50,742 nucleotides of DNA from a bacterium (GCA_030611945.1 JAUWOV010000001.1:1-50742); one strand, 5' to 3'; shown: positions 5,015 through 33,227, counted from the first letter of the stretch. The notes: generated by a model from the letters alone, not told the origin. Program-made: numbers and translations.

Positions 5015-5035
5015 CTAGAAGGAGGATGAGGAGCG

Positions 5036-9146: not shown

Positions 9147-9308
9147 AGCGACTATTTTGCATTGTTTTTCGATAAAGTCAAGACTATTTTGCATTACCTA
9201 TGGCTACAGATCTATTTTGTTTTTGTTGTCCATAATGATATAATCTAACCTAAATTTTATTAGAATCTGAATAAGGCACAAAGAAAAAGATAAAGATATA
9301 GTCAAATT

Positions 9309-10534: not shown

Positions 10535-11566
10535 TTATAGTTTTATAATTGCCTTAATTGAATCTCCTTTTCTTGCTTTTTTAAATGCTTCTTCCCATTT
10601 ATCAAGAGTATATAAGTCTTTAGTAAATGGATTTAGATTCATCTTTTTATTTGAAACCATAGATAAACATCTTTCCCAGCTTAAATAATCAGAACTATAA
10701 CTAAAGAATATATTTACAGCTTTTAATATTAAGTTCATCCACGGCGCGTTTATTTTATCAGAACATAATCCTAATGCGCAAAATCTTCCATTTTTCCGTA
10801 TAATATCAAATCCCTGCATTATTCCATTAGGTGAACCGGACAGTTCAATAACAACATCTACTCCAATATTATTTGTTGAATCCATAATAATCTTTACAGG
10901 ATCTTCCTTTCTAACATTTATTACTCTATCTGCGCAAAAACGTTTTGCGGCCTTAAACCTTATTTTTTCATCAGCATTAATCCCAGTCATAAATACTTTT
11001 GATGCACCATTTGCTTTTACCATTTGTAGCGCAAGAAGCGCAATAGGCCCGCATCCAATAATAGCAACAACATCATCCAGTTGAATTTTTGTTTTTTCAA
11101 AAATAGCATATGCAGCAATAGCCATTGGTTCTATTAAACATGCTTCCTTATAGCTAACATTATCAGGTATTTTATGAATAAGTAAGGCAGGCATTGTTAT
11201 ATATTCGGCAAATGCACCATTAACTCCATAACCGGGCGCTTTCTTTTTTGAGCATAAATGCCGATTCCCTGTCATGCAATATCTGCAAGCACTGCATGCT
11301 TTAGTATGCTGCTCGCTGACTACCCTATCTCCATATTCCCAATTTTTAACTTTGCTGCCTGCTTTATCAATCACACCTGAAAATTCATGCCCTATAATAA
11401 CCGGAGGATTGTATGGAAACTTATCATCCATAATTTTTATATCCGTACCGCACACACTGGTATACTTTATTTTAATTCTAACTTCAGATTCGTCAGGTTC
11501 CGGCACGGGGACATCTCTTATTTCTAAAAACCCTTTACCTTTTTTATACTTAACTAAAGCTTTCAT
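10535..11566 (-). CDS. zinc-dependent alcohol/polyol dehydrogenase (MDR family, sorbitol/threonine dehydrogenase-like)
   Basis: Motifs are CGTD, GHEFSGVI, a structural-zinc Cys cluster CSACRYCMTGNRHLC, and the Rossmann segment IIGCGPIAL. Confidence 0.85.
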   Translation of the reverse strand: MKALVKYKKGKGFLEIRDVPVPEPDESEVRIKIKYTSVCGTDIKIMDDKFPYNPPVIIGHEFSGVIDKAGSKVKNWEYGDRVVSEQHTKACSACRYCMTGNRHLCSKKKAPGYGVNGAFAEYITMPALLIHKIPDNVSYKEACLIEPMAIAAYAIFEKTKIQLDDVVAIIGCGPIALLALQMVKANGASKVFMTGINADEKIRFKAAKRFCADRVINVRKEDPVKIIMDSTNNIGVDVVIELSGSPNGIMQGFDIIRKNGRFCALGLCSDKINAPWMNLILKAVNIFFSYSSDYLSWERCLSMVSNKKMNLNPFTKDLYTLDKWEEAFKKARKGDSIKAIIKL

Positions 11567-11585
11567 AATTATTGTGTATAAATGT

Positions 11586-12596
11586 TTATTTATAATCCTC
11601 TATAATTTTATTTTTAATTTCTATAATTTCATTCTTATTGCCCATAAATGCCCATACTTCACTAATATCACTAATTTCGTTCCCTTTTTTCATAGATACT
11701 GCCGGACTATGATACTCCATTTCGCCAAAACCGCCGAGTTTACCGTCGTCTACATAAACCTGTTGAACATATCCTTTGTTATTTAAATCATCTACAGATA
11801 CATCATAATATTCTGATTCATCATATACAGAAAATTTTCTAACAATTATAAATGCTGGGTCATTATTCAAATTTTCATACAGCATAATGCCAAGGGAATT
11901 GTTTGCTTTTATTGAAAATTTAAAACTGGTTGATGTCTTTACTTCAGTTATAAGAGTGTTATTCCTTATATGATATTTTGATTTATTTATAAAATCTTTT
12001 GGTTTTACATTATGTCTGATAGGTATAATGATTTTTCCATTGCCCTGCACTTGTAGTATATTCCATATTGCCGGATTAACATTGTTTTTCCCATTGCCGG
12101 AATATTTTAATGATGATTTCATAATATATCCGGCATAACTACATTCATTAAATGGTTTAAAAGGAGGTTGACTGCAAAGTTCAATATTTTTTCGTATTGT
12201 AATATTAATATATTCCTTTATTCTATGAAACAACAGATTCATCTCTGTTTCAAAAACAACTTTATTTTTTTCTATTTTTAGTATTTTATATGCTGCAGGA
12301 TCCATTGATTTTTGTACATTATAAGTATCATTTGCTTTTTTACTATTATCGATATTAGTATCAACCTCAGGTGATATCCATGTGCGATCTCCTCCAATAT
12401 TTACCCAGCCTGGTTTTGTAAAAAACTCCTTTGAAGAATCTATAGACAAAATTCGGTTATTTACCCATAAAAGATTATTGATTTTATCAGGAGCAAGCCC
12501 TATAACACGCCCTCCAAAAGGTAGTATTAGTAATTTCTCATCCAGTAATACCATGCTTTGATTTATTTTTTTTAGTTTGTTAATTAATTCTTTCAT
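11586..12596 (-). CDS. hypothetical protein, possibly mutarotase-like beta-sandwich (DUF4380-like)
   Basis: This is a long ORF in an operon. The motif GGDRTWISPE resembles the conserved GGDxxWxAPE of DUF4380-type proteins. The family call is a by-eye guess. Confidence 0.5.
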   Translation of the reverse strand: MKELINKLKKINQSMVLLDEKLLILPFGGRVIGLAPDKINNLLWVNNRILSIDSSKEFFTKPGWVNIGGDRTWISPEVDTNIDNSKKANDTYNVQKSMDPAAYKILKIEKNKVVFETEMNLLFHRIKEYINITIRKNIELCSQPPFKPFNECSYAGYIMKSSLKYSGNGKNNVNPAIWNILQVQGNGKIIIPIRHNVKPKDFINKSKYHIRNNTLITEVKTSTSFKFSIKANNSLGIMLYENLNNDPAFIIVRKFSVYDESEYYDVSVDDLNNKGYVQQVYVDDGKLGGFGEMEYHSPAVSMKKGNEISDISEVWAFMGNKNEIIEIKNKIIEDYK

Positions 12597-12619
12597 TATA
12601 GCGTCTCTATTTACCTGAA

Positions 12620-13501
12620 TTATTTGCTAATAAACTCAAAACAGGGAAGCCCGCATATATTAGTCTTAAGACGAAACAGCCCTCCTGCATGAGGTTGATT
12701 TTTAATTTCATTCTCTTTTAATAAAAACGAAGCAGTAGTAATATATAACTCATTCAGGTTATCCCCTCCAAATGTACACGATGTTACATTTTGAACGGGA
12801 AGCTTTATGTATTCTAATAATTTCCTATTTAAAGGATCCCATCGTGATACACCCCAGCCTCCGAAAAGCGCAATCCAAAGCATTCCTTTTTCATCAATTG
12901 TCATTCCATCAGGATATCCCATTAATTCGGGTATTTTTATAACAGTTCTTTTATTTGCTATATCACCGCTTTTATTATCATAATCAAAAGATACTATCTC
13001 TCTTGTGGGAGTATCAATATAGTACATTTTTTTCTTATCAAGACTCCAGACTAAACCATTTGATACACTAACTCCGCTAAGCATTTTATGAAGTTTTAGA
13101 TCTTTACCAATTCTATATAAATTTGCATTTCCTGCTTTATTATCCATTGATAGAGAACCAACCCAAAAACGTCCGGATGGGTCACATTTACCGTCATTTG
13201 CTCTGTTTTCAGGAATATCTTCCTCAAAAGCAATTAATTTCTTCAATTCCTTTTTTTCAGTATTATATTCAGCTATACTATTTTCTAAGGCAAGTATTAG
13301 TTTCCCTTTTGATGCAGGGACGACTGTTCCTATACGTTCGCCAATATCATACGTTTTATTCTCTCTAGTTCCGGGATTATATATATGAAGTTCCCCTTTT
13401 TCTATATCTACCCAGTATAGAAATCTTTTTTTATAATCCCAGAATACTCCTTCTCCAAGATCCGCTTTGATATCTAATACCAATTCAATTTCTCTTTTCA
13501 T
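12620..13501 (-). CDS. SMP-30/gluconolactonase/LRE family lactonase
   Basis: Motifs LGEGVFWD, LYWVDI, NDGKCDPSGRFWVG, LYYIDT, PDGMTIDEKGMLW and LYITTA are typical six-bladed propeller lactonase signatures. Confidence 0.85.
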   Translation of the reverse strand: MKREIELVLDIKADLGEGVFWDYKKRFLYWVDIEKGELHIYNPGTRENKTYDIGERIGTVVPASKGKLILALENSIAEYNTEKKELKKLIAFEEDIPENRANDGKCDPSGRFWVGSLSMDNKAGNANLYRIGKDLKLHKMLSGVSVSNGLVWSLDKKKMYYIDTPTREIVSFDYDNKSGDIANKRTVIKIPELMGYPDGMTIDEKGMLWIALFGGWGVSRWDPLNRKLLEYIKLPVQNVTSCTFGGDNLNELYITTASFLLKENEIKNQPHAGGLFRLKTNICGLPCFEFISK

Positions 13502-13504
13502 ATT

Positions 13505-14320
13505 TTATTTTCTATCCCCGCCTTCAAGGTTGCTTGATTTATAAGGCTCGCGGCTTATTAACTGGCTTGTCATACCGCCGTCAGCAAGAATATTGGTGCC
13601 GGTAATATAGCTTGCATCATCGCTGCAAAGAAAAACCGCTGTTTTGGCAATTTCTTCAGGATGGCCTACTCTACCCATAGGTATATTAGATTTCCAGAAT
13701 TTCATGCATTCTTCAATATTGGGAGCGGCATTTTTAATATCATCCCATATTTGTGTGTCAATGAGTCCGGGAGAAAGAGCATTTACACGGATATTTCTGT
13801 CTGCATACTCCACTGCCATTGATTTTGTTAAACCAACAATTCCCCACTTACCTGCATCATAAGGTGCTGCTCCTGGAAGGCATGCCTTTGTATGCACTGT
13901 AGTTATATTTAAAATACATCCTTTTTTTGCGTTTATCATATGAGGAATACAGTAATAAGAGCATAGATATGTGCCTCGCAAATCAGTATTAATTACACGG
14001 TCCCAATCTTTCGGCTCTGTTTTTTCAAAAGGCTTTACAAAATTTACTCCTGCATTATTTACAAGAATATCAATGCGCCCATTTTTTTCTATTACTTGTT
14101 GAACCATTCTTTTTACATCATCTTCTTTTGATACATCACATTTTATAAAAACTGCTTTACCTCCCTCTGCGCAGATCCCATTAACAACAGACTCTCCGTT
14201 ATCTCTGCTCCTTGAGCTTGCATAAACCATAGCGCCTTTTTTTGCAAAAGTTTTTGCTATGCTTTTCCCAATCCCCCTTCCTGTACCAGTTATAACCGCA
14301 ATTTTATCTTTTAACATCAT
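13505..14320 (-). CDS. SDR family oxidoreductase
   Basis: Motifs are TGTGRGIGKSIA (TGxxxGIG), NNAG, and the YDAGK catalytic Tyr-Lys. An AGGAGG RBS lies 6 nt upstream of the ATG at 14320, so the ORF-track start at 14335 is probably too early. Confidence 0.85.
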   Translation of the reverse strand: MMLKDKIAVITGTGRGIGKSIAKTFAKKGAMVYASSRSRDNGESVVNGICAEGGKAVFIKCDVSKEDDVKRMVQQVIEKNGRIDILVNNAGVNFVKPFEKTEPKDWDRVINTDLRGTYLCSYYCIPHMINAKKGCILNITTVHTKACLPGAAPYDAGKWGIVGLTKSMAVEYADRNIRVNALSPGLIDTQIWDDIKNAAPNIEECMKFWKSNIPMGRVGHPEEIAKTAVFLCSDDASYITGTNILADGGMTSQLISREPYKSSNLEGGDRK

Positions 14321-14405
14321 AAAGCACCTCCTCATTTATAATTTGGTATTGTCAAAATATTATTAAAAATTAGATTGCCTCCCCCCCCTACCTCATATGT
14401 TCAGA

Positions 14406-16376
14406 TTATTTACCTGTTGAAATCCAGATCGGGCTTGACCATGCCATATGACCATCTGCCTGGGTAACCCGCATGTAATAATAAGTGTTTTTATTGAGCC
14501 GTTTTTTATCCACATACTCCAGAGTCACGGATTTTTCCCCCGGTTCTTCCGTATGAATATTCTGATTATTCCTGATGATCTCTACTTTTTCAAGTTTCTC
14601 CGTGCCTGATACTGATACTGATATTTTTATCGGCAATGCCGGATTGTCCACAGAGAATTCTTCTCCCATAAGATGTCCATTTAATTCAATATCTATAAGT
14701 ATTCTGGCACCTGTTGTGGCGTAACACCGCCGTTTTCTCAAGGCGTTGAATATTCCTTCTCTGCTCAATTCTTCAGTGATAACCGCTGTAAGGCCGCTTC
14801 GCTTGTATTTAAGAACAGGCGGAGGGTCTTCATTTGTCTTTAAATAACTGTTATGTTCGCTTAAGCGGGTGTCAATAGTTTCGTTCATCTCACTGCCCGG
14901 TCTTGAAATATGTGTATCTGAGCCGGCAGTAAATCCTAATTTGTATCCTCGCGCTAATGCATCCTGGACATAATTGCCTTTCTCTGTTTTATAAAGAGGG
15001 TAGGGGCATCCATAGTATTCCGAGCATCCATGTTTGGAATATATCTCCACCAACATTTCCATCTCTTCGTCATGATGATTCCAGTCAGTGCCCGGCACAG
15101 CCCATCCTATCGGATAACCTGGATGATGCGGAATCGTGATAGCGTTTTCTTTTTCCGATAATGTCTTCCAGAGTTTTTCCGGGGTATCCGCCTCTTTTCT
15201 GTAATGATGGTAAAGAGGTCTCCCATCGGAAGAATAATACACATTCTTATGTCCGAAATTTTTGTCGGGTGTAGAGCCAATGCCAGGCAGTGTCCATTCA
15301 TTCCCTAACAGCGTGACGAATTTTCCACACTCGTTATACCTGAACGTAGTATACGAGATAATGCTCCAGGCAGTCTCATTATTTTGCCAAAAACTGTCTA
15401 TCGGCAATTTGAACTTACCCAGTCCTCCGCATACGGCGTTTCTATTTGAAGAGACAAGATAAGAGGCATGGTCAGCTATAGCGCAAAAGTCCAGATTTTC
15501 CACATCCCGACCATACTGATAATAATAGTCCGGACTCTCCAGGCCATCAGAAAGAAAGGTGTGTCCGTGTATTTCTCCCCAATAGACATTGTGTTCTTTA
15601 TCATCTTCCCTGCATTGGACGGGATTGCTGGCAGCGACAAGATTATTCCCGGTATCTTTGGCTGTTATAGTGTGCAGTCCCGGAGAATTAAAAACAGCAT
15701 CAAATCTGTGTTTACCCTTATCATTTGGTATAAAAGCGTAATCTTCAGGTAATCGAACGTTTTTATCACTGCTCACAAAACTTACCCTGCCGGTATATCC
15801 AGACGCGGGATTCCCGAATCTGTCAAAAGCCCTTAAAACAAAGCTGAACGGTAATCTTGCTTTCGGGGTGGAATCCGCCACAAGGCTTAGCTGGACAGCC
15901 TTATCCGAAATCACATCCAGTCGGGAAATATCTTCCAGTCTCTCGTATTCATCATTGCCATACTGGTCTATCCAAACATTAAAAAGGACATTATGTGTAA
16001 AAGGCTTCATTGTATGCCCGGGGCATCTGCTCGTCCGATCTCCAAAGATGACAGTGACGGCATCGCCTTCTTTCAGGCAGCCATCTTCAATTTTTAGCTC
16101 AACACCCTTAAACATTATAGTGTCAACACAATTCAAAGAAACCGCGGCAACGCCTGAAATCTTAGCGCTAAGATATTCCGCTTTATCCGGATGGTCTGTT
16201 TGAGGGGGATACATGCATTCTCTCCCGTAAGCCATTATTCTTATTTTACCACCAGCATGAACCTCCTCTGACAGTGTTATTTTGATCTGCCAAGTTATTT
16301 GCCTGCCAACAATAGCGGGTTCCTTGCCCAAAATGGAAACCTTGCTGAATTTTATTTTTTTGCTTTCTAATGACAT
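14406..16376 (-). CDS. PHP-domain / DUF3604-like metallohydrolase, paralogue A (656 aa), substrate unknown
   Basis: Motifs YWGEIHGHTFLSDG, CAIADHA, PHHPG and GFTAGSDTH are PHP-type metal-ligand patterns. Beta-rich N- and C-terminal extensions flank them. No signal peptide. Confidence 0.7.
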   Translation of the reverse strand: MSLESKKIKFSKVSILGKEPAIVGRQITWQIKITLSEEVHAGGKIRIMAYGRECMYPPQTDHPDKAEYLSAKISGVAAVSLNCVDTIMFKGVELKIEDGCLKEGDAVTVIFGDRTSRCPGHTMKPFTHNVLFNVWIDQYGNDEYERLEDISRLDVISDKAVQLSLVADSTPKARLPFSFVLRAFDRFGNPASGYTGRVSFVSSDKNVRLPEDYAFIPNDKGKHRFDAVFNSPGLHTITAKDTGNNLVAASNPVQCREDDKEHNVYWGEIHGHTFLSDGLESPDYYYQYGRDVENLDFCAIADHASYLVSSNRNAVCGGLGKFKLPIDSFWQNNETAWSIISYTTFRYNECGKFVTLLGNEWTLPGIGSTPDKNFGHKNVYYSSDGRPLYHHYRKEADTPEKLWKTLSEKENAITIPHHPGYPIGWAVPGTDWNHHDEEMEMLVEIYSKHGCSEYYGCPYPLYKTEKGNYVQDALARGYKLGFTAGSDTHISRPGSEMNETIDTRLSEHNSYLKTNEDPPPVLKYKRSGLTAVITEELSREGIFNALRKRRCYATTGARILIDIELNGHLMGEEFSVDNPALPIKISVSVSGTEKLEKVEIIRNNQNIHTEEPGEKSVTLEYVDKKRLNKNTYYYMRVTQADGHMAWSSPIWISTGK

Positions 16377-16474
16377 TTTTATTTCTCCTGTTTCTATTTC
16401 ATCCTCTTTTTATAAAACACATTCAACACAATCTGTGACTGTCTTTGAATAATTTCTTTAAATTTTGCAAATCT

Positions 16475-18433: not shown

Positions 18434-18456
18434 AGTAAGATTCTCCTTATGTTTTT

Positions 18457-27505: not shown

Positions 27506-28647
27506 ATAACTTCCATCTTTGCAACAACCGCTTTCACGCCTTCTCTAACGTTATCAACGCTTATGATACCTTTAACGGTATTAATAATTTCCATGCCCTT
27601 ATCTTTATTTGTACCTTCTATCCTTACAATTACGGTCTTTTTTGAAGATAGTGACTCAACCGCCTTCTTAATGCCGGAAGCAATTTCGTCGCAGCGAGTG
27701 ATCCCGCCAAAAATATTTACAAACAAAAGATCAATATCTTTATTTGATAGAATAATTCGTATGCCTTCAGCTACTCTATCAGCAGTAGCGCCTCCTCCTA
27801 TGTCCAAAACCGCGCCAACCTTAATCCCTTCTTTTGATATTAAATCAATACATGACATGATCATACCAGAGCCATTACTCATTACTGCAACTTTTCCATA
27901 TTCTTCAATTGGTATGTATAGAAACTTGAATTTTCTAGCCTCTTTTACAAGAGCTTCTTCATTAAGTTCTTCTCTGAAATTTAATATTTGTTCCTGACGG
28001 GGAAGAGCGCTGTCATCTATTGTTATCTTGCCGTCAAGCGCTATAAACTCATTTTTCCCGTTTATTGCCAGAGGATTAATTTCAACCAGCATGCAGTCTC
28101 TTTGTATAAAAAGCTCATAAAGATTTTTTACTACAGGAAATAATCTTTCCTCTAAATTTAGATCAAGATTGGATTTTTTTAAAATATATTTAATATTATA
28201 TCTTTGAATACCTAAAAGTGGATTGATTGGAATTTTGATAATTGAATCAGGATCATCTTTTGCAGCCTGCTCAATATCAATACCTCCATTTGCGCTAAAA
28301 ATAAGTACTGGCTTTTGATAATCCCGATCGAGCATTATACTTAAATAACATTCTTTTATGGGATTCGCCTTTTGTACAATTAGAAGCTTATTTACATCCA
28401 TTCCCTTTAATTTACTATGAAGCAATTCTTTACATATTTTCTTTGCTTCGTCTGGAGAATTTGCAAACTTTATTCCCCCTGCTTTACCACGACCTCCAAT
28501 TTGCACTTGAGCTTTAACAACTCTGGGATAGTCTATATTGTTTAATTTTTCATCAAGCTTATCAAGACTATCAATCACTATACCATCAGGTGTTGGCACA
28601 TTATGCGCTTTATATAACGCATGCGCCATATATTCCAATAATTTCAA
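27502..28647 (-). CDS. sucC: succinyl-CoA synthetase-like beta subunit (ATP-grasp)
   Basis: It starts MKLLEYMAHALYKAHNVPTP, with VVKAQVQIGGRGKAGGIKF and a C-terminal ligase-CoA domain (GGITRCDEIASGI). Confidence 0.85.
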   Translation of the reverse strand: MKLLEYMAHALYKAHNVPTPDGIVIDSLDKLDEKLNNIDYPRVVKAQVQIGGRGKAGGIKFANSPDEAKKICKELLHSKLKGMDVNKLLIVQKANPIKECYLSIMLDRDYQKPVLIFSANGGIDIEQAAKDDPDSIIKIPINPLLGIQRYNIKYILKKSNLDLNLEERLFPVVKNLYELFIQRDCMLVEINPLAINGKNEFIALDGKITIDDSALPRQEQILNFREELNEEALVKEARKFKFLYIPIEEYGKVAVMSNGSGMIMSCIDLISKEGIKVGAVLDIGGGATADRVAEGIRIILSNKDIDLLFVNIFGGITRCDEIASGIKKAVESLSSKKTVIVRIEGTNKDKGMEIINTVKGIISVDNVREGVKAVVAKMEVI

Positions 28648-28650
28648 TTA

Positions 28651-30015
28651 TTACCCCCATAATTCCTGATCTGTCGGCACTTTATTATCTTCCATGAGAT
28701 AAGCTATTCTTGTAATATTCATTAAGTGTTTAAACGTAAAATTTTCAGAAATACTGTTATTGCCCCATGTTCCGCATCCAAGTGTTGTTGTCGGAGCAAG
28801 ACCATTAAAAAAACTTCCGCCAACCATTTTTGAACTTATTTGATTCACAAGCAATCTGCTAACAGTTAAGTTTAGTCCTGCATATTCTATATTCTCTTTA
28901 TTATTTGAATGAATTACTGCAGAATGTCCTGCTCCTTCTACGTTTAAATTCCCTTGCGCTATTTCTATAGCCTCTTCAAACGTTTTATATTTATAAGCTG
29001 TTATAACCGGACACATTTTTTCTTTGCTAAGAATATCATTCTTGCCATATCCATCTCCTTCCACAAGTATTACCTGAGTATCACCAGGAATATCAATACC
29101 TGCAAGTTCACCTATTATTTCTACTGACTGCCCAACTGCTTTAGATGAAAAAGCGCCTTCTTCTGTCCACAAAGTTTTTCTTATTTTTTCTTTATCTTCA
29201 TTATTATTAATAAAAAATGTTTTTTGATTTTTAAATTCGTTTATTACAGCATCATAATCATCTTCATGTACTATTATTGATTGTTCACCGGAACAAATAA
29301 TGCCGTTATCAAAAATACGACCTTCAATAATTTTAGAAGTTGCTTCAGCAATGTTTACATTTCTGTCAATAATACACTGCACATTGCCAGCGCCAACTCC
29401 ATAAGAAGGTTTCCCGCTTGAATATGCTGCCTTTACCATACCCATTCCTCCTGTTGCAACAATAACATCTACCTTTCGCATTAATTCTAATGTTAGTTCT
29501 TTAGAAGGTTCTTCTATAACCTGTATTAAATTTTCCGGGATATTAAGTAATTTCAAAGCTTCATTCCATTCATCAACAAGAGCTTTTGCGCAGTTTTTTG
29601 CCCGCGGGTGAGGGGCTATTATAATTGAATTATATGCTTTTACTGCAAACATAGCATTGCATAAAGGGGTAACAATCGGGTTAGTACAAGGAGTAATTGC
29701 TCCTACAACTCCAACAGGTTTTGCTATTTCAATAATACCTGTTGTTTCGTCACGATTTATAATTCCTCTTGTTTTTTTCCCCTTAACGCTATGAAATAAT
29801 ATTTTTGATTTTCCTCGTTTTTTTAATACTTTATGTTCGTAAACACCCATTCGTGTTTCATCCACAGCCATCCTTGCCCATTTTTCTGCGCCGTCAAATA
29901 CAATTTTTGCAAGAGTAAGAAGAATTTGTTCTATTTGATCTTCTTTCAAAGACTGTAGCTCTGCCTGTGCTTTTTTTGATCTTCCTATCAATCTTTTAAT
30001 GTATGAATTTTCCAT
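28651..30015 (-). CDS. CoA-acylating aldehyde dehydrogenase (EutE/PduP / Clostridium kluyveri SucD-like succinate-semialdehyde dehydrogenase type)
   Basis: It is ~454 aa with catalytic DNGIICSGEQS. The N-terminal pattern (AQAELQSL..DETRMGVYEHKVLK) resembles acylating ALDHs as I recall them. Confidence 0.75.
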   Translation of the reverse strand: MENSYIKRLIGRSKKAQAELQSLKEDQIEQILLTLAKIVFDGAEKWARMAVDETRMGVYEHKVLKKRGKSKILFHSVKGKKTRGIINRDETTGIIEIAKPVGVVGAITPCTNPIVTPLCNAMFAVKAYNSIIIAPHPRAKNCAKALVDEWNEALKLLNIPENLIQVIEEPSKELTLELMRKVDVIVATGGMGMVKAAYSSGKPSYGVGAGNVQCIIDRNVNIAEATSKIIEGRIFDNGIICSGEQSIIVHEDDYDAVINEFKNQKTFFINNNEDKEKIRKTLWTEEGAFSSKAVGQSVEIIGELAGIDIPGDTQVILVEGDGYGKNDILSKEKMCPVITAYKYKTFEEAIEIAQGNLNVEGAGHSAVIHSNNKENIEYAGLNLTVSRLLVNQISSKMVGGSFFNGLAPTTTLGCGTWGNNSISENFTFKHLMNITRIAYLMEDNKVPTDQELWG

Positions 30016-30704
30016 TATTTCTCCCGATTATAAATTTTATATGCATTTTCAAGATGATTCTGCATTTCGTTTTTTGCGGTTTCTGAATCTTGCTGTAATA
30101 CAGCATTATATATCTTTTGATGCTGATTCCTTGCTATTTCCAAGCCGTCATTCTTTAAGGTTATTAATCTTAATTTTTTTTGCAGTGATAACAATGGTTT
30201 TGTAATTAATAAAAAAATTTCGTTTTTACATGCATAGACTAAAGAAGTATGAAATTCCAGATCAAGGCACGCAGCATCAGATATATTTTTACAAGTATTC
30301 AATGACTTAATAATACTGAGCATACGATCTATATCATTCTGTTCTCTGTTTTGCGCTGCAAGATAAGCAATTCCGGGTTCATAAATTAAACGAGCCTGCA
30401 TTATTGAATCATTGGAAGTGTTGTTTCTTTGAAGATGCATTTCAATTATATCCTGCGCCATTTCAACTTTTGGATTTGCAACGATTGTACCAGACCCCTG
30501 AACAACTTTTACCAGTCCAATAGCTTGCAATGATTTCATTACTTCACGAAGGATATTTCTGCTTATTTGAAGCTGCTCACAAAGTTCATTTTCAGTAGGT
30601 AATTTTTCTCCTAGTTTATATTTGTCTTTCATAATTATGTTTTTTATGTTTGTAAAGGCGAGATTGTGCAGGGAATTACTTTTAATTGGTTGTAAAAGCG
30701 TCAT
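30015..30704 (-). CDS. GntR family transcriptional regulator, FadR subfamily
   Basis: It has the winged HTH LPTENELCEQLQISRNILREVMKSLQAIGLV and an all-helical FCD-like C-terminal domain. Its stop overlaps the ALDH start by 1 nt (TAATG). Confidence 0.85.
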   Translation of the reverse strand: MTLLQPIKSNSLHNLAFTNIKNIIMKDKYKLGEKLPTENELCEQLQISRNILREVMKSLQAIGLVKVVQGSGTIVANPKVEMAQDIIEMHLQRNNTSNDSIMQARLIYEPGIAYLAAQNREQNDIDRMLSIIKSLNTCKNISDAACLDLEFHTSLVYACKNEIFLLITKPLLSLQKKLRLITLKNDGLEIARNQHQKIYNAVLQQDSETAKNEMQNHLENAYKIYNREK

Positions 30705-30717
30705 AACAATTCATCCT

Positions 30718-30764
30718 ATGATAGTATCATGGGATATTGTGAGCGTTTTTAAGAGATATGTCAA
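30718..30764 (-). promoter_or_regulatory. candidate promoter (TTGACA-17-CACAAT) and palindromic operator ATGATAGTATCAT upstream of the GntR gene
   Basis: On the minus strand, TTGACA lies at 30764-30759 and CACAAT at 30741-30736. A perfect 6-1-6 palindrome at 30718-30730 lies between the -10 and the start codon at 30704. Confidence 0.3.
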
Positions 30765-30796
30765 GAACTTTTAGCCACAAAATTGGAAATGAAATT

Positions 30797-31852
30797 TCAT
30801 AGAGCTTCAGCGATGGCTTTACCAACTTCTTGTGTGCTTGCTTTACCGCCTATGTCCCTGGTGCATGGTCCGTTATCTAACACAGTTTCAATAGCGGAGA
30901 CTATCGCGTCAGCAGCATCTTTGTGCCCAAGATGCTCTAACATCATTGCGCCTGCCCAGATCTGTCCTATCGGGTTGGCGATATTCTGTCCATAGATGTC
31001 CGGAGCAGATCCGTGCACCGGCTCAAACATTGATGGAAATTCTCGCTCCGGATTGAGATTAGCCGATGGCGCGATGGCAATTGTGCCGGTACATGCCGGT
31101 CCAAGGTCTGAGAGAATGTCCCCGAACAGGTTGGAGCCTACCACAACGTCAAAGCGGTCCGGATTGAGAACGAATTGTGCGGTAAGTATGTCAATATGAT
31201 ATTGGTCAATCTTCACATCCGGATACTTCTCAGACATCGCTTGTACACGTTTGTCCCAGTAAGGCATTGAGACGAAAATGCCATTCGATTTTGTAGCAGA
31301 GGTAAGGTGTTTTTTCGGTCGTGTACGGGCTAACTCAAACGCATACCGCAAGATACGATCCACACCGCGACGCGTGAAGATGCTTTCCTGAACAACAAGT
31401 TCAAAGTCAGTGTCTTCAAAGCTCATACCGCCAAGAGAGGAATATTCGCCTTCAGTGTTTTCCCGCACGACAATAAAGTCAATGTCACCGGGTTTGCGTC
31501 TGCGCAAAGGTGATTGAATTCCATGCATAAGCCGCACCGGGCGAATATTGGCATACTGCTGGAAGCCGCGACGGATATTTATCAGCAGTCCCCACAAAGA
31601 AATGTGATCAGGAACACCGGGAAAGCCAACAGCACCTAGAAAAACAGCATCGTGCCGGCGGATAAGTTCAAGTCCATCCTTCGGCATCATTCGACCGTGT
31701 TTCTTGTAATACTCACAATTCCACGGCAGCTCATCCCAGTGGAACCGGATATCGAACTTAATACCCACCGTCTCCAGCACCCGGATACCTTCAGGCATCA
31801 CTTCCTTACCGATCCCATCACCAGCAATCACAGCAATGTTATATCTACTCAT
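30797..31852 (-). CDS. ttuC: tartrate dehydrogenase/decarboxylase / D-malate dehydrogenase (isopropylmalate dehydrogenase family)
   Basis: It is collinear with Pseudomonas-type tartrate dehydrogenase as I recall it: IAVIAGDGIGKEVMPEGIRVL, GAVGFPGVPDHISLWGLL, IRPVRL, DFIVVRENTEGEYS and NLFGDILSDLG. Confidence 0.85.
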   Translation of the reverse strand: MSRYNIAVIAGDGIGKEVMPEGIRVLETVGIKFDIRFHWDELPWNCEYYKKHGRMMPKDGLELIRRHDAVFLGAVGFPGVPDHISLWGLLINIRRGFQQYANIRPVRLMHGIQSPLRRRKPGDIDFIVVRENTEGEYSSLGGMSFEDTDFELVVQESIFTRRGVDRILRYAFELARTRPKKHLTSATKSNGIFVSMPYWDKRVQAMSEKYPDVKIDQYHIDILTAQFVLNPDRFDVVVGSNLFGDILSDLGPACTGTIAIAPSANLNPEREFPSMFEPVHGSAPDIYGQNIANPIGQIWAGAMMLEHLGHKDAADAIVSAIETVLDNGPCTRDIGGKASTQEVGKAIAEAL

Positions 31853-32030
31853 AATCTTTCTCCAATTAAATTAAGTACAATGACCAAACTTTAGCGACAC
31901 CATACCCCAAATTATTTAAGACTTCAACAGGAATATACAAAAACACGTATTCAGCGCTTGATTTATTTATTTCTGGACAATTTGTAAATTCAATTGACAA
32001 ACTGTCCAAAGCATGTTATTGTTTTTTGTC

Positions 32031-33227
32031 ATGATATACAGAACGATTACTAAGAAACTAGTTTCAATGGCGCGATATTTTCCTGCAGTTGGTGTTATCG
32101 GTCCACGTCAGTCCGGCAAAACAACGCTTGTGAAAGCTTCCTTTCCAAATAAACCCTACGTTTCGTTAGAAGACCCAGCCAACCGTGAATATGCCATGAA
32201 CGATCCGCGCGGTTTTTTGGATGAATATCCCAATGGAGCAATAATAGACGAAATCCAAAGAGTTCCCGACCTATTCTCGTACTTACAGGGAATACTTGAC
32301 GAAAAGAATATTCCCGGATTATTTATTCTTACAGGATCGCAGCATTTTTTAATGATGGAAAATATTTCTCAAACACTTGCCGGTCGTATATCTTTATTGA
32401 AACTGCTCCCATTTTCTCTTGAAGAATTATACAAAGCAGGCTTCAAACACGATACTTACGAAGATTACATATATACAGGGTTTTATCCGCGAATCTATGA
32501 TAAGAATGTTCCTGCTCAGGTATGGCATACCAATTATATCCAAACATATGTAGAAAGAGATATACGTATGATAAAAAATGTTCACGACATTAACGCTTTT
32601 CAAACATTTTTAAAGATGTGCGCTTCCAGGATAGGTCAACTGCTTAATCTCTCATCGCTTGCTGATGACTGTGGAATAACTCACAACACGGCAAAAGCAT
32701 GGTTATCTGTACTGGAGACAAGTTTTGTTATTTTCCTTCTACGACCTCACTACAAAAATTTTAAAAAACGCCTTGTAAAAATGCCGAAACTATATTTTTA
32801 TGACACAGGCATTGCTTGCTTCCTGCTTGATATACAAAACAGGAAACAGCTGACTAATCATGCTTTAAGGGGGAATCTCTTTGAGTCATTTATTATATCC
32901 GAATTTGTTAAATATAGATACAATAAAGCGCAGGAACATAATTTTTATTTTTGGAGGGACAAGACAGGACATGAGATAGATTTGATAATTTCAAAGAATG
33001 ATCGGCTTATACCTGTTGAAATTAAATCGGGGAAAACACCAACAGAAGATTACTTCAGGAATATTCTGTACTGGAACAAGATATCCGGTGGGGAGGCAGG
33101 CAATTCTATTGTAATATATGGCGGTACTCAGAAACAGGAACGATCATCAGGCAAGATTATTCCATGGAAATATCTTACCAAAATCAGCGCAAAAACAGGT
33201 TCCTTTGCTCGCCTGAACGTATTGTAA
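32031..33227 (+). CDS. AAA+ ATPase with DUF4143-type C-terminal domain (second copy of the family)
   Basis: Walker A is VIGPRQSGKTTLV and Walker B-like is AIIDEIQ. NLSSLADDCGITHNTAKAWLSVLE and GHEIDLII..PVEIK are also present. A start at the ATG at 32031 (MIYRTITKKL) is preferred over the ORF-track start at 32013. Confidence 0.75.
   Translation: MIYRTITKKLVSMARYFPAVGVIGPRQSGKTTLVKASFPNKPYVSLEDPANREYAMNDPRGFLDEYPNGAIIDEIQRVPDLFSYLQGILDEKNIPGLFILTGSQHFLMMENISQTLAGRISLLKLLPFSLEELYKAGFKHDTYEDYIYTGFYPRIYDKNVPAQVWHTNYIQTYVERDIRMIKNVHDINAFQTFLKMCASRIGQLLNLSSLADDCGITHNTAKAWLSVLETSFVIFLLRPHYKNFKKRLVKMPKLYFYDTGIACFLLDIQNRKQLTNHALRGNLFESFIISEFVKYRYNKAQEHNFYFWRDKTGHEIDLIISKNDRLIPVEIKSGKTPTEDYFRNILYWNKISGGEAGNSIVIYGGTQKQERSSGKIIPWKYLTKISAKTGSFARLNVL

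What the first reader, a model, noticed from the sequence alone, without database searches (positions are those of the whole stretch)
10535..31852. ~21 kb, 17-gene co-directional array fusing sugar-oxidation, unknown-hydrolase and organic-acid/CoA modules
All genes from 31852 down to 10535 lie on the minus strand. Intergenic gaps are very short, with several start/stop overlaps: 27502-27505 ATGA, 30015 TAATG, and 3-10 nt gaps elsewhere. The order is tartrate/D-malate dehydrogenase, GntR regulator, CoA-acylating ALDH, SucC-like, SucD-like, E1alpha, E1beta, E2, [gene relic], helical-repeat protein, 2x TIM-barrel-like, 2x DUF3604-like, SDR, SMP-30 lactonase, mutarotase-like protein, Zn-ADH. Dehydrogenase plus lactonase plus mutarotase-like is the classic entry to oxidative (non-phosphorylative) sugar catabolism. 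However, no aldonate dehydratase, aldolase, kinase or transporter is present. I do not recognise this combination as a described pathway. It may be a chimeric operon still being assembled, or a genuinely new route from a glycoside to CoA esters.
Basis: inference. Interest (0 to 1): 0.65.

Follow-up and report, generated by a model that had tools for sequence, protein, structure and literature searches.

The report
Mosaic sugar-to-CoA catabolic gene cluster
A 21-kb run of 17 same-strand genes is a real catabolic gene cluster, probably for a sugar-derived substrate, that was visibly stitched together by recombination; several of its unusual enzyme pairings recur in unrelated bacteria, so it may mark an undescribed way of breaking down a sugar-derived compound.

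Summary

The E2-g9 spacer is a recombination scar. It holds the first 8 codons of the SDR gene g14, joined at a TGCG microhomology to the last ~21 codons of a DUF3604 gene (blastn E 2e-8 to 2.5e-13). So E2 and the SDR were once adjacent and translationally coupled. The five-gene hydrolase block g9-g13 has higher GC3 (0.34-0.41 versus 0.20-0.28) and most likely arrived later. The tartrate dehydrogenase gene (GC 49%) is another add-on.

The sub-modules are not a chance mix:
- SDR, Zn-ADH and DUF6786 (mutarotase fold) form a conserved operon core in five other metagenomic arrangements. Two of these are linked to a TPP-dependent E1 and three to a LarA-like epimerase.
- The closest DUF3604 homologues sit behind sugar ABC transporters, next to Zn-ADH-SDR or E1α-E1β-E2.
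- The acylating ALDH plus SucCD-like pair matches a known aldehyde → acyl-CoA → acid + ATP module.

No other locus carries the whole set. The substrate, the transcript structure and the chemistry remain inferred.

The parts
30797..31852 (-). g1, tartrate / D-malate dehydrogenase (Iso_dh family). Compositional outlier and probably its own transcription unit.
   Evidence: TIGR02089 scores 565 bits against a cut-off of 470. GC is 0.49, GC3 0.48 and K/(K+R) 0.38, against a window background of 0.37 and 0.31. A 92-nt spacer with a promoter-like site separates it from g2.
30713..30764 (-). Candidate promoter (TTGACA-17-CACAAT, 30764->30736) and a 23-bp palindrome (30713-30735, ATCCTATGATAgTATCATGGGAT) just upstream of g2. 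Candidate autoregulated start of the g2->downstream unit.
   Evidence: The palindrome is unique in the window. Its function is inferred.
30015..30704 (-). g2, GntR-family regulator with an FCD ligand domain.
   Evidence: Pfam GntR and FCD. Its stop overlaps the g3 start by 1 nt (TAATG).
28651..30015 (-). g3, CoA-acylating aldehyde dehydrogenase, closest to succinate-semialdehyde DH (acylating) / succinyl-CoA reductase.
   Evidence: PDB 8cei scores 514 bits with 52% identity over 450 columns, against 326 bits for AdhE. NCBIfam SauS scores 412 bits, below its cut-off. The catalytic Cys motif IICSGEQ is present.
27502..28647 (-). g4, SucC-like beta subunit of an ADP-forming acyl-CoA ligase.
   Evidence: ATP-grasp_2 and Ligase_CoA. 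NF001913 scores 384 bits, cut-off 370. The substrate motif is GIT instead of the canonical GIV (motif role from PMC11489063).
26636..27505 (-). g5, SucD-like alpha subunit.
   Evidence: CoA_binding and Ligase_CoA. The phospho-His loop GHAGA is present. SRSATNCYE replaces the canonical SRSGTLTYE. ATGA overlap with g4.
25648..26619 (-). g6, E1 alpha of a 2-oxoacid / acetoin-type dehydrogenase. Likely start is ATG 26619; the TTG ORF start is at 26685.
   Evidence: E1_dh, E = 1e-86. TIGR03182 scores 383 bits, just under its cut-off of 394. The best PDB match is human PDH E1a. The GDG...NN thiamine diphosphate motif is present. An RBS precedes 26619.
24655..25638 (-). g7, E1 beta.
   Evidence: Transket_pyr and Transketolase_C. 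PDB matches to PDH and 2-oxoacid DH beta subunits all score 256-274 bits.
23494..24645 (-). g8, E2 lipoyl-acyltransferase. No E3 is in the window.
   Evidence: Biotin_lipoyl, E3_binding and 2-oxoacid_dh. The lipoyl-Lys motif ETDKA and the catalytic motif DHRIIDG are present. Scores are similar for acetyl- and succinyl-transferase models.
23395..23514 (-). Recombination scar (the 'gene relic'). RBS plus the first 8 codons of an SDR gene (23514->23474, overlapping the E2 stop) are joined at a TGCG microhomology (23474-23477) to the last ~21 codons, the stop and ~17 nt downstream of a DUF3604 gene (23477->23395).
   Evidence: the repeat finder families D1, D2 and D5. Alignments. blastn E = 2.5e-13 versus the g13 3' end, 4.6e-10 versus the g12 3' end and 1.9e-8 versus the g14 5' end, against a noise floor of E >= 0.77. 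The relic translates LRVLQEDGHMAWSSPIWISVS*, compared with g13 MRVTQADGHMAWSSPIWISTGK*. No other spacer has such a match.
21872..23383 (-). g9, cytoplasmic protein with an N-terminal beta-sandwich and an (alpha/alpha)6 barrel. Carbohydrate-active fold resembling GH76 and AGE-type epimerases/isomerases.
   Evidence: AF2 pLDDT 94.5. Foldseek top matches are GH76, cellobiose 2-epimerase and mannose isomerase, target-normalised TM 0.55-0.71. There are 93 homologues at <=41% identity in many phyla, with non-conserved contexts.
20207..21829 (-). g10, DUF6259 protein (TIM-barrel glycosidase-like), rare subtype.
   Evidence: PF19773 scores 53 bits, cut-off 28.7. Only one homologue was found among 5.8 billion clusters: P0095, 34% identity, with a GntR/FCD gene directly upstream.
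18457..20136 (-). g11, DUF6259 paralogue (29% identical to g10).
   Evidence: Homologues in cultured bacteria sit directly behind sugar ABC transporters or a SusC/D pair, next to GH127, GH3 or CBM35 genes.
16475..18433 (-). g12, DUF3604 / CehA-McbA-type metallohydrolase (PHP-like) with an N-terminal Ig-like region. Variant metal motif IHGQT.
   Evidence: PF12228 scores 77 bits; NF038032 scores 87 bits, cut-off 80. A profile hits a PHP phosphoesterase, 3e0f, at E = 8e-4. Motifs. The nearest genomic relative, L009 (51% identity), lies behind a sugar ABC transporter and in front of ZnADH-SDR.
14406..16376 (-). g13, DUF3604 paralogue (40% identical to g12) with the canonical IHGHT motif.
13505..14335 (-). 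g14, SDR oxidoreductase. The true start is probably ATG 14320 or 14317, behind an AGGAGG RBS.
   Evidence: adh_short_C2, E = 1e-70. About 50% identical to the SDRs adjacent to DUF6786 in L005, L172, L173 and L175.
12620..13501 (-). g15, SMP-30 / gluconolactonase-family lactonase.
   Evidence: PF08450, E = 1e-81. It is absent from all related loci, so it is an addition specific to this cluster.
11586..12596 (-). g16, DUF6786 protein with a galactose-mutarotase-like fold.
   Evidence: PF20583 scores 52 bits, cut-off 27. AF2 pLDDT 95.5. Foldseek top matches are the aldose 1-epimerases 3nre and 2htb, TM 0.5-0.6. Invariant residues include R30, R71, E77, D99, E292, E294 and H296.
10535..11566 (-). 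g17, Zn-dependent medium-chain dehydrogenase.
   Evidence: ADH_N, ADH_zinc_N and Glu_dehyd_C. Tdh-like at 258 bits, below its cut-off. It is 31-37% identical to the Zn-ADHs adjacent to DUF6786 in L007, L172, L173 and L175, and 26% identical to the one in L005.

Best explanation
The array is a mosaic catabolic gene cluster for a carbohydrate-derived substrate that has not been identified. It was assembled stepwise by recombination and is probably transcribed as g1 alone plus one long GntR-controlled unit, g2-g17.

Shown:
- An older core had E1alpha-E1beta-E2 directly followed by, and translationally coupled to, the SDR gene. The scar shows this adjacency. That lactonase-DUF6786-ZnADH already followed the SDR in that older arrangement is inferred from the L173-type operon and the shared low GC3, not shown.
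- The five-gene block g9-g13 now separates E2 from the SDR. Its left end is a truncated DUF3604 gene fused by a 4-nt microhomology to the first 8 codons of the SDR.
- The tartrate dehydrogenase gene is compositionally foreign.
- SDR-ZnADH-DUF6786 is a conserved operon core elsewhere, repeatedly linked to a thiamine-diphosphate E1 and to LarA-type 2-hydroxyacid epimerases.
- DUF3604 and DUF6259 homologues typically sit as the first cytoplasmic enzyme behind sugar or organic-acid importers.

Inferred mechanism:
1. The signal-peptide-less hydrolases g9-g13 release a sugar or sugar-acid unit from an imported glycoside, oligosaccharide or ester.
2. DUF6786 (anomerase- or epimerase-like), the SDR, the lactonase and the Zn-ADH convert it by NAD(P)-dependent oxidation, through a lactone and a hydroxy acid, to a keto acid.
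3. The E1/E2 complex cleaves or decarboxylates this keto acid oxidatively to an acyl-CoA. This replaces the dehydratase/aldolase steps of the classic non-phosphorylative routes.
4. The CoA-acylating aldehyde dehydrogenase and the SucCD-type ligase turn an aldehyde or acyl-CoA product (probably C4-dicarboxylate-like) into the free acid with ATP gain.
5. Tartrate/D-malate dehydrogenase feeds a hydroxy-dicarboxylate product to pyruvate or glycerate.
For: Anatomy and intactness.

Scar showing a former E2-SDR coupling and later arrival of g9-g13.

GC3 step: g9-g13 are at 0.34-0.41 and the rest of g2-g17 at 0.20-0.28 (Mann-Whitney p = 2e-4). g1 is an outlier at 0.48.

Conserved triad SDR (~50% identity), ZnADH (26-37%) and DUF6786 (40-43%):
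- L005, L172, L173/L174 and L175/L176 carry all three; L007/L008 carry ZnADH-DUF6786.
- A fused E1alpha-beta sits inside the operon in L173/L174, immediately before the SDR.
- An AceE-type E1-E2-E3 lies 450 nt downstream in L007/L008.
- Lar_N lies upstream in L172, L173 and L007.
- LarA homologues are 2-hydroxyacid racemases/epimerases, including gluconate/mannonate epimerisation (PMC7583248, PMC11770544).

DUF3604 links:
- L009: ABC transporter - DUF3604 (51% identity) - ZnADH - SDR - AP_endonuc_2 - aldolase_II - GHL10.
- L052: LacI - ABC transporter - DUF3604 - E1a - E1b - E2, with a 16-nt gap.
- E1ab lies within 5 kb of DUF3604 in 6 of 80 loci, against 0 of 80 control loci (Fisher p = 0.014; the loci are not independent).

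DUF6259 homologues sit behind sugar ABC transporters or a PUL, next to GH127, GH3 or CBM35. DUF3604 sits behind importers in cultured strains.

The g3-g5 trio matches the biochemically characterised pairs of a CoA-acylating ALDH with an ADP-forming SucCD-type ligase: SqwD/SqwKL, HpfX/HpfYZ and SauS/SauCD (PMC11489063, PMC12890257). g3 is 52% identical to acylating succinate-semialdehyde DH. The SucCD substrate motifs deviate from canonical SCS.

No terminator-like site falls in any intergenic gap of the minus strand. There is one promoter-like site and one unique palindrome before g2.
Against: - None of the other loci examined here (about 175) carries the full set.
- None of the 80 DUF3604 loci has DUF6259, the (alpha/alpha)6 protein, DUF6786, the lactonase, the ALDH, SucCD or tartrate DH. 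None of the 80 DUF6259 loci has any partner except an occasional SDR.
- The contexts of g9 homologues are unrelated to this cluster.
- SucC, SucD and E1beta reach NCBIfam cut-offs for the housekeeping enzymes. They could be the genome's only succinyl-CoA synthetase and pyruvate dehydrogenase, placed there by chance.
- The E1 enzymes linked to the triad elsewhere are of different types (fused alpha-beta, AceE-type) and only 33-38% identical to g6/g7.
- The low-GC3 part of the cluster also deviates from the window background (p = 3e-5), so composition does not say which part is native.
- The scar is equally compatible with a microhomology deletion in a formerly larger cluster.
- No substrate, transporter or E3 is identifiable, and no transcript data exist.
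Confidence: 0.55

Rival explanations
1. Chance juxtaposition. Housekeeping central-metabolism genes (pyruvate dehydrogenase E1/E2, succinyl-CoA synthetase) happen to lie upstream of one or two unrelated accessory sugar operons on the same strand, in a genome with long co-directional gene runs. There is no shared pathway.
For: - SucC, SucD and E1beta pass NCBIfam cut-offs.
- E1alpha is closest to human PDH E1alpha.
- The right flank is a run of about 20 co-directional unrelated genes.
- The full combination is found nowhere else.
- There are six gaps of 42-110 nt.
Against: - The scar shows that E2 and the SDR were once stop/start-overlapped, which means co-translated.
- TPP-dependent E1 genes recur inside or next to the SDR-ZnADH-DUF6786 operon and next to DUF3604 in unrelated lineages.
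- The SucCD-like subunits have non-canonical substrate-site motifs and only borderline scores.
- A dedicated GntR/FCD regulator heads the unit.
Confidence: 0.2
2. A succinyl-CoA hub attached to a conventional oxidative pentose or hexuronate route, with the dehydratases encoded elsewhere. The sugar is converted to 2-oxoglutarate. E1/E2 acts as a 2-oxoglutarate dehydrogenase. SucCD makes succinate plus ATP. g3 interconverts succinyl-CoA and succinate semialdehyde.
For: - g3 is 52% identical to acylating succinate-semialdehyde DH.
- SucCD reaches the succinate-CoA ligase cut-offs.
- E2 scores almost equally well with succinyltransferase models (277 versus 305 bits).
- All three enzymes would share succinyl-CoA.
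Against: - E1alpha is PDH-like, not 2-oxoglutarate-DH-like (31 bits to TIGR00239).
- No dehydratase or 2-oxoglutarate-semialdehyde DH is in the window.
- The SucCD substrate motifs are altered.
- Tartrate DH is left unexplained.
Confidence: 0.12
3. A variant sulfoquinovose or organosulfonate pathway (sulfo-ED-like). The SDR, SMP-30 lactonase and mutarotase-like protein oxidise sulfoquinovose to sulfogluconate. The acylating ALDH and SucCD-type ligase oxidise a sulfo-aldehyde to a sulfo-acid with ATP gain.
For: - The first three sulfo-ED steps use an NAD-dependent dehydrogenase, a lactonase and a mutarotase (PMC12890257).
- Every biochemically characterised acylating-ALDH plus SucCD-type pair cited here acts on sulfonates.
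- g3 scores 412 bits with the SauS model.
- The Enterococcus gilvus and E. raffinosus homologues are 45% identical.
Against: - No sulfogluconate dehydratase, KDSG aldolase, GH31 sulfoquinovosidase, TauE-type exporter or desulfonating enzyme is present.
- The SauS score is far below its cut-off of 600, and the succinate-semialdehyde DH match is much stronger.
- The HpfYZ signature residues (Tyr->His, GIV->GIN) are not present. g5 keeps the Tyr and g4 has GIT.
Confidence: 0.06

Closest known systems
CoA-acylating aldehyde dehydrogenase plus ADP-forming SucCD-type acid-CoA ligase modules: SqwD/SqwKL, HpfX/HpfYZ, SauS/SauCD (PMC11489063, PMC12890257, PMC10413351)
   Same: The same three adjacent gene families are present: PF00171 of the acylating subclass, PF08442 + PF00549, and PF02629 + PF00549. 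The catalytic Cys and the phospho-His loop are present. The expected chemistry is aldehyde <-> acyl-CoA <-> acid + ATP.
   Different: The known examples act on sulfonates in sulfoglycolysis or sulfoacetate respiration. Here there is no sulfonate context. The ALDH is closest to succinate-semialdehyde DH. The ligase has its own motif variants (GIT, SRSATNCYE). The trio is fused to a PDH-type E1/E2 and to sugar-oxidising genes.
Non-phosphorylative oxidative sugar pathways (non-phosphorylative Entner-Doudoroff, Weimberg/Dahms, L-fucose/L-rhamnose diketo-hydrolase routes)
   Same: NAD(P)-dependent sugar dehydrogenase candidates (SDR, Zn-ADH with a Glu_dehyd_C tail), an SMP-30 lactonase and a mutarotase-fold protein are clustered.
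   Different: The defining aldonate dehydratase and the 2-keto-3-deoxy-acid aldolase (or dehydratase / semialdehyde DH) are absent. A thiamine-diphosphate E1/E2 takes their place in the cluster, and in the related operons L173/L174 and L007.
Acetoin / pyruvate-type E1alpha-E1beta-E2 dehydrogenase complexes
   Same: A heterotetrameric-type E1 with the GDG...NN motif. The E2 has lipoyl, E3-binding and catalytic domains (DHRxxDG).
   Different: No E3 gene is present. E1alpha falls just under the PDH equivalog cut-off. The complex is embedded in a sugar-oxidation cluster and was formerly translationally coupled to an SDR.
Cytoplasmic glycoside-processing genes behind CUT1-type sugar ABC transporters or PULs
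   Same: DUF6259 and the closest DUF3604 homologues occupy the position directly after the permease genes (L009, L052, Deinococcus aetherius, Cnuibacter). They are often next to GH127, GH3, CBM35 or GHL10 genes.
   Different: The window cluster has no transporter at all. It carries paired paralogues of both DUF families plus an (alpha/alpha)6 protein, a combination not seen in the 160 loci retrieved for these two families.

Membership tests
Single operon / transcription unit | All genes co-directional with short or overlapping junctions | tested here: met
   There are 17 minus-strand genes. Ten junctions are <=23 nt or overlapping, and six are 42-110 nt.
Single operon / transcription unit | No internal terminators and one promoter | tested here: inconclusive
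   No terminator-like site lies in any minus-strand intergenic gap. A promoter-like site and a palindrome lie before g2, which suggests g1 is separate. These are simple consensus scans only.
Single operon / transcription unit | One continuous transcript | not testable with these tools
   No transcript data are available.
Non-phosphorylative oxidative sugar pathway | Aldose dehydrogenase plus lactonase | tested here: met
   SDR, Zn-ADH and SMP-30 families are present. Substrate specificity is unknown.
Non-phosphorylative oxidative sugar pathway | Aldonate dehydratase (IlvD/Edd or enolase superfamily) | tested here: not met
   No such family is found in any of the 17 proteins or elsewhere in the window.
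Non-phosphorylative oxidative sugar pathway | 2-keto-3-deoxy-acid aldolase, or the dehydratase / semialdehyde DH branch | tested here: not met
   None detected.
Sulfo-ED sulfoquinovose pathway | Sulfogluconate dehydratase, KDSG aldolase, sulfoquinovosidase and a sulfonate/sulfite exporter | tested here: not met
   None detected in the window. The pathway definition is taken from PMC12890257.
Acylating-ALDH plus SucCD-type ligase module | Adjacent genes for a CoA-acylating ALDH and both ligase subunits, with catalytic residues | tested here: met
   g3-g5 are contiguous, with a 3-nt gap and an ATGA overlap. The Cys motif, the GHAGA loop and the domain sets are present.
Acylating-ALDH plus SucCD-type ligase module | Substrate identity | not testable with these tools
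   The closest solved relative is succinate-semialdehyde DH (52% identity). The ligase motifs are non-canonical.
2-oxoacid dehydrogenase complex | E1 thiamine diphosphate motif, E2 lipoyl-Lys and the DHRxxDG active site | tested here: met
   domain coverage.
2-oxoacid dehydrogenase complex | E3 (dihydrolipoamide dehydrogenase) encoded with the complex | tested here: not met
   No Pyr_redox_2 protein is in the window. E3 is often shared between complexes and encoded elsewhere (general knowledge).
Tartrate dehydrogenase (TIGR02089) | Score above the equivalog cut-off over the full length | tested here: met
   565 bits against 470, covering residues 1-351.
DUF3604 / CehA-McbA metallohydrolase | Pfam / NCBIfam score above cut-off and PHP-type metal motifs | tested here: met
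   g12 scores 77 and 87 bits, g13 scores 75 and 96 bits. An HxH-type motif is present, but it is HGQ in g12.
DUF6259 | Pfam score above the gathering cut-off | tested here: met
   53 and 52 bits against 28.7.
Galactose mutarotase (aldose 1-epimerase) family | Mutarotase beta-sandwich fold | tested here: met
   Foldseek top hits are 3nre, 2htb and 1lur, with probability 1.0 and TM 0.46-0.60.
Galactose mutarotase (aldose 1-epimerase) family | Sequence membership (Aldose_epim Pfam) and the catalytic His/Glu constellation | tested here: not met
   There is no Aldose_epim hit, only DUF6786, and 8-11% identity to the structural matches. Conserved E292, E294 and H296 exist, but their equivalence to the mutarotase residues was not established.

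The most novel reading that the evidence does not exclude
The SDR-ZnADH-DUF6786 core, together with a thiamine-diphosphate/lipoyl E1(-E2), defines an undescribed oxidative route for a sugar or sugar acid. In this route a keto-aldonate (or a methyl-ketone sugar acid) is cleaved or decarboxylated directly to an acyl-CoA. This bypasses the dehydratase and aldolase steps. Energy is conserved through an acylating ALDH and a SucCD-type ligase, and the carbon ends in a C4 hydroxy-dicarboxylate that is handled by tartrate/D-malate dehydrogenase. In this window the route has recently captured a block of three uncharacterised hydrolase families (DUF3604, DUF6259 and an (alpha/alpha)6 protein) that supplies its substrate.
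Probability: 0.2. Interest if true: 0.8.

Novelty: new variant of a known kind. Interest (0 to 1): 0.5.

Why it matters
Three Pfam families in this cluster (DUF3604, DUF6259, DUF6786) have no characterised member of this subtype, and no paper in the searchable literature assigns them a function. No solved structure matches them by sequence, apart from a weak profile hit of DUF3604 to a PHP phosphoesterase. This cluster and its relatives give each family a testable context:
- DUF6786 is a mutarotase-fold partner of two dehydrogenases.
- DUF6259 and DUF3604 are first cytoplasmic enzymes behind sugar importers.

The repeated linkage of a PDH-type E1 to sugar-oxidising genes hints at a catabolic logic that current pathway models do not include.

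The scar in the E2-g9 spacer is also a rare base-pair-resolution record of how a long catabolic operon grows. A foreign block entered between two translationally coupled genes through microhomology on one side and, apparently, homology on the other.

Tried and rejected
- **g9 contexts.** The neighbourhoods of g9 homologues (Pedobacter L001, L002, L003/L004) share nothing consistent with the window. g9 was dropped as an anchor.
- **g10.** It has a single homologue, on a 3.3-kb contig, which shows only an unrelated GntR/FCD gene upstream.
- **DUF6259 metagenome scan.** The 80 loci (22-29% identity) have no partner from the window cluster and no dominant neighbour family.
- **DUF3604 neighbour clustering.** The partners are diverse (URO-D, sulfatases, ABC ATPases, SDR). 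Only the closest relatives are informative.
- **First genome scan.** The 28-sequence alignment failed for lack of a conserved stretch and was repeated with 8 sequences.
- **Second relic.** I tested whether the g13-g14 spacer holds a relic of the g9 5' end, which would be a tandem or circular junction. No similarity was found (p = 0.53). No other spacer has a relic.
- **ALDH on plasmids.** The contexts in Caballeronia and Ponticoccus were uninformative. DUF6786 has no match in the plasmid collection.
- **Taxonomy.** It could not be established. Window proteins are singletons even at 90% identity for EF-G and are not on record for contig look-up. There are no tRNA or Rfam hits.
- **Acetoin-type idea.** I considered cleavage of a 5-keto-6-deoxy-aldonate giving tartrate semialdehyde. 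It is kept only as one variant of the inferred chemistry, because nothing tested here discriminates it from 2-keto-aldonate decarboxylation.
- **Flanking ATPase genes.** The AAA_14/DUF4143 genes on both flanks are only 29% identical, and no terminal repeats were found, so there is no evidence for a mobile island.

Full report

Yes. One search lists 17 ORFs of 229-656 aa on the minus strand between 10535 and 31852.

Pfam and NCBIfam give, in transcription order:
- g1, tartrate dehydrogenase (TIGR02089, 565 bits, cut-off 470)
- g2, GntR/FCD regulator
- g3, CoA-acylating aldehyde dehydrogenase
- g4 and g5, SucC-like and SucD-like
- g6, g7 and g8, E1alpha, E1beta and E2 of a PDH-type complex
- g9, a 503-aa protein with no Pfam family
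- g10 and g11, DUF6259 (29% identical to each other)
- g12 and g13, DUF3604 / CehA-McbA metallohydrolases (40% identical)
- g14, SDR
- g15, SMP-30 lactonase
- g16, DUF6786
- g17, Zn-dependent dehydrogenase

All proteins cover their family models end to end, and the catalytic motifs I checked are intact. These are the E2 lipoyl-Lys and DHRIIDG, the E1alpha GDG...NN motif, the ALDH Cys and the SucD GHAGA loop.

The ATGA (27502-27505) and TAATG (30015) overlaps exist.

Two corrections are needed:
- With the likelier g6 start (ATG 26619, preceded by AGGAG), the junctions in gene order g1 to g17 are 92, -1, 3, -4, 16, 9, 9, 110, 42, 70, 23, 98, 70, 3, 23 and 19 nt. Six gaps are 42-110 nt, not 3-10.
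- Co-directionality alone means little here. The right flank is a run of about 20 co-directional genes with unrelated functions, including peptidase M16, purN, tyrA, aroA, cmk, plsC, rpsA, prepilin peptidase and bioHCD.

The window comes from a low-GC diderm bacterium (Tol-Pal, RuvC, YebC, EF-G). Its proteins are singletons even at 90% identity, so the lineage could not be named.

**2. The 'gene relic' is a recombination scar.**

A repeat search found that the 110-nt E2-g9 spacer is built from two pieces that occur elsewhere in the cluster. Reading the minus strand:
- 23514->23474 matches the RBS and first 8 codons of the SDR gene g14. The match is 36 nt at 89% identity to 14332->14297, blastn E = 1.9e-8. 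The E2 stop codon TGA overlaps this SDR-like ATGATG start.
- 23477->23395 matches the last ~21 codons, the stop and ~17 nt downstream of the DUF3604 genes. It is 91% identical over 45 nt to the g13 3' end (E = 2.5e-13) and 90% identical over 39 nt to the g12 3' end (E = 4.6e-10).

The noise floor for this query is E >= 0.77. The relic translates LRVLQEDGHMAWSSPIWISVS*, against MRVTQADGHMAWSSPIWISTGK* for g13.

The two pieces meet at a shared TGCG (23474-23477). No other spacer in or around the cluster has such a match.

What this shows directly is that an ancestor had E2 immediately followed by the SDR gene, overlapping it. The present left boundary of the g9-g13 block lies inside a truncated third DUF3604 gene, joined by microhomology.

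Two histories fit:
- Insertion of a donor segment '...DUF3604-g9-g10-g11-g12-g13-SDR...', anchored by homology in the SDR and joined illegitimately on the other side.
- A microhomology deletion in a formerly larger cluster.

Composition favours different histories for the block and its neighbours. GC3 is 0.34-0.41 for g9-g13 and 0.20-0.28 for g2-g8 and g14-g17 (p = 2e-4). However, both sets deviate from the window background of 0.31, so composition does not say which part is native.

g1 is a clear outlier, with GC 0.49, GC3 0.48 and Arg-rich composition. It is separated from g2 by 92 nt that contain a TTGACA-17-CACAAT site and a unique 23-bp palindrome. I read g1 as a separate and later addition.

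**3. What are the unknown proteins?**

*g16 (DUF6786).* An AlphaFold2 model from 47 sequences has pLDDT 95.5. Its best PDB matches are aldose 1-epimerases (E. coli YphB 3nre, YeaD 2htb, GalM homologues; TM 0.46-0.60). It has the mutarotase fold but not mutarotase sequence membership.

*g9.* The model has pLDDT 94.5 and shows an N-terminal beta-sandwich plus an (alpha/alpha)6 barrel. The nearest structures are GH76 mannanase and the AGE family (cellobiose 2-epimerase, mannose isomerase), with target-normalised TM 0.55-0.71.

*g12 and g13.* They belong to a very large family: 8,823 representatives at E < 1e-3. A profile weakly matches a PHP phosphoesterase at the HxH motif. g12 and its closest relative carry HGQ instead of HGH, and g13 has ADHA instead of TDHD. 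This may mean the two work as a pair.

*General points.* None of g9-g17 shows an obvious N-terminal signal peptide (by eye), so I take these enzymes to be cytoplasmic. No paper in the searchable literature assigns a function to DUF3604, DUF6259 or DUF6786. No solved structure matches any of them by single-sequence search.

**4. Do the sub-modules travel together elsewhere?**

The result is pairwise yes, all together no.

*(a) DUF6786 anchor.* SDR (~50% identical to g14), Zn-ADH (26-37% to g17) and DUF6786 (40-43% to g16) are adjacent and co-directional in L005, L172, L173/L174 and L175/L176. L007/L008 have ZnADH-DUF6786.
- In L173/L174 a fused E1alpha-beta (721 aa) sits inside the operon, in the order Lar_N - ZnADH - E1ab - SDR - DUF6786. 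Here E1 directly precedes the SDR, which parallels the E2-SDR adjacency reconstructed in section 2.
- In L007/L008 an AceE-type E1-E2-E3 follows 450 nt downstream.
- Lar_N genes precede the core in L172, L173 and L007. LarA homologues are 2-hydroxyacid racemases/epimerases, and their known reactions include gluconate/mannonate epimerisation (PMC7583248, PMC11770544).
- L175 adds GFO_IDH_MocA, two epimerase/dehydratase-like genes and a GH36.
- None of these loci has the lactonase.

*(b) DUF3604 anchor.* This set is 80 GTDB loci.
- The closest, L009 (Planctomycetota MAG, 51% identity), reads SBP - permeases - DUF3604 - ZnADH - SDR - AP_endonuc_2 - class II aldolase - GHL10.
- L052 (Chloroflexota MAG) reads LacI - SBP - 2 permeases - DUF3604 - E1a - E1b - E2, with a 16-nt gap.
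- E1ab lies within 5 kb of DUF3604 in 6 of 80 loci, representing about three independent arrangements. The figure is 0 of 80 in the DUF6259 control set (Fisher p = 0.014).
- In cultured strains DUF3604 follows importers of various kinds.

*(c) DUF6259 anchor.* The 80 metagenomic loci share no other window gene. In cultured bacteria, however, the homologue sits directly after a sugar ABC transporter or a SusC/D pair, next to GH127, GH3 or CBM35 genes.

*(d) g9 anchor.* The contexts of g9 homologues are unrelated. One locus, L003, has a PHP protein upstream and E1ab 3 kb downstream.

**5. The CoA part.**

g3 is 52% identical over its full length to the solved CoA-acylating succinate-semialdehyde dehydrogenase 8cei (514 bits, against 326 bits for AdhE).

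An acylating ALDH next to a SucCD-type ADP-forming ligase is a biochemically established two-step module, aldehyde -> acyl-CoA -> acid + ATP. Known examples are SqwD/SqwKL, HpfX/HpfYZ and, running in reverse, SauS/SauCD (PMC11489063, PMC12890257).

That work names the residues that read the distal group of the acid: a Tyr in the alpha subunit and a GIV motif in the beta subunit. Here the Tyr is kept, but its loop is SRSATNCYE instead of SRSGTLTYE, and GIV is GIT. NCBIfam scores are only just above the succinate-CoA ligase cut-offs. The substrate may therefore be succinate or a substituted C4 acid. This cannot be decided by sequence.

E1alpha is closest to PDH E1alpha but falls just under the equivalog cut-off. 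E1beta and E2 do not discriminate. No E3 is in the window.

**6. Most likely mechanism (inferred).**

1. The cytoplasmic hydrolases g9-g13 release a sugar-like unit from an imported conjugate.
2. DUF6786, the SDR, the lactonase and the Zn-ADH oxidise it, through a lactone and a hydroxy acid, to a keto acid.
3. E1/E2 converts the keto acid to an acyl-CoA, standing in for the missing dehydratase and aldolase.
4. g3-g5 harvest ATP from an aldehyde or acyl-CoA product.
5. Tartrate/D-malate dehydrogenase handles a hydroxy-dicarboxylate.

The LarA association elsewhere fits chemistry at C1-C2 of a 2-hydroxy acid: epimerise, oxidise to the 2-oxo acid, then decarboxylate with E1. An acetoin-type cleavage of a 5-keto-6-deoxy-aldonate is an alternative that I cannot exclude.

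My confidence that this is a functionally coupled, recombination-built catabolic cluster is about 0.55. My confidence in the specific keto-acid/E1 chemistry is about 0.2-0.3.

**7. Rivals.**

- **Chance juxtaposition of housekeeping PDH and SCS with accessory sugar operons (0.2).** This is weakened by the former E2-SDR coupling and by the recurring E1 links.
- **A succinyl-CoA hub fed by a conventional route whose dehydratases lie elsewhere (0.12).**
- **A sulfoquinovose/sulfonate variant (0.06).** It lacks every sulfur-specific component.

**8. Novelty and verdict.**

Every individual enzyme family with a name is known, and catabolic super-operons are a known kind. Three things are new:
- the combination itself;
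- the conserved SDR-ZnADH-DUF6786(-E1/-LarA) core, which I could not find described;
- the base-pair-resolution scar that documents how the operon grew.

I rate it a new variant of a known kind, with interest 0.5.

Noticed in passing
window 31974-32008: A near-perfect 35-bp palindrome, TGGACAATTTGTAAATTcAATTGACAAACTGTCCA, lies in the divergent region between g1 (tartrate DH) and the AAA_14/DUF4143 gene. It overlaps a plus-strand promoter-like site at 31994-32022. It is unique in the window, with 0 expected by chance.
   Followed up: partly
window 8025-9194 (-) and 32013-33227 (+); L001 1-745: AAA_14/DUF4143 ATPase genes flank the cluster region on both sides. They are only 29% identical and no terminal repeats were found. 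A gene of the same family also lies near the g9 homologue in Pedobacter sp. BS3.
   Followed up: partly
window 16475-18433 and 14406-16376: The two DUF3604 paralogues carry complementary deviations in PHP-type motifs. g12 has IHGQT, as does its nearest relative P0158. g13 has IADHA and GNEW. This suggests a heteromeric pair or one non-catalytic subunit.
   Followed up: no
window 16475-18433, residues ~160-250 of g12: The Ig-like N-terminal region of DUF3604 matches 10-33 tandem repeats in giant proteins of 1,000-3,500 aa (P0159-P0162 and others). This inflates their scores in the representative search.
   Followed up: no
L018, L020, L039, L040, L046, L075, L081; also L007 at 4692-5714 and 19627-20730: URO-D-family genes (uroporphyrinogen decarboxylase / methyltransferase-like) sit next to DUF3604 in 7 loci, and lie between DUF3604 and E1beta in L081 and probably the related loci L018, L040 and L046. 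Two more flank the ZnADH-DUF6786 pair in L007. The window has none.
   Followed up: no
L017, L019, L044, L053, L057, L070, L085: Sulfatase genes neighbour DUF3604 in 7 of the 80 loci. This hints that some family members act in sulfated-glycan utilisation.
   Followed up: no
L172 5942-7150, L173 4533-5759, L007 7873-8958: LarA-like (Lar_N) genes lie directly upstream of the SDR/ZnADH/DUF6786 core in three unrelated contigs. The window lacks one and carries tartrate/D-malate dehydrogenase instead.
   Followed up: partly
L089 432-1157: P0095, the only close homologue of g10, is preceded by a GntR/FCD regulator gene. That regulator has no detectable similarity to g2.
   Followed up: partly
window 26619-26685 and 14317-14335: Mechanical ORF starts are probably too far upstream. 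g6 likely starts at ATG 26619 (AGGAG RBS) rather than TTG 26685. g14 likely starts at ATGATG 14320/14317 (AGGAGG RBS) rather than ATG 14335.
   Followed up: yes
window 45876-48083: A BioH-like hydrolase, a BioC-like methyltransferase and a BioD (AAA_26) gene form a biotin-synthesis run downstream of rpsA and a prepilin peptidase gene. This is ordinary housekeeping context.
   Followed up: no
window 10535-31852 versus the rest of the window: The low-GC3 part of the cluster (g2-g8 and g14-g17, GC3 0.20-0.28) is significantly below the window background of 0.31 (p = 3e-5). Even the 'older' core may therefore not be native, or it may be under different codon selection.
   Followed up: partly
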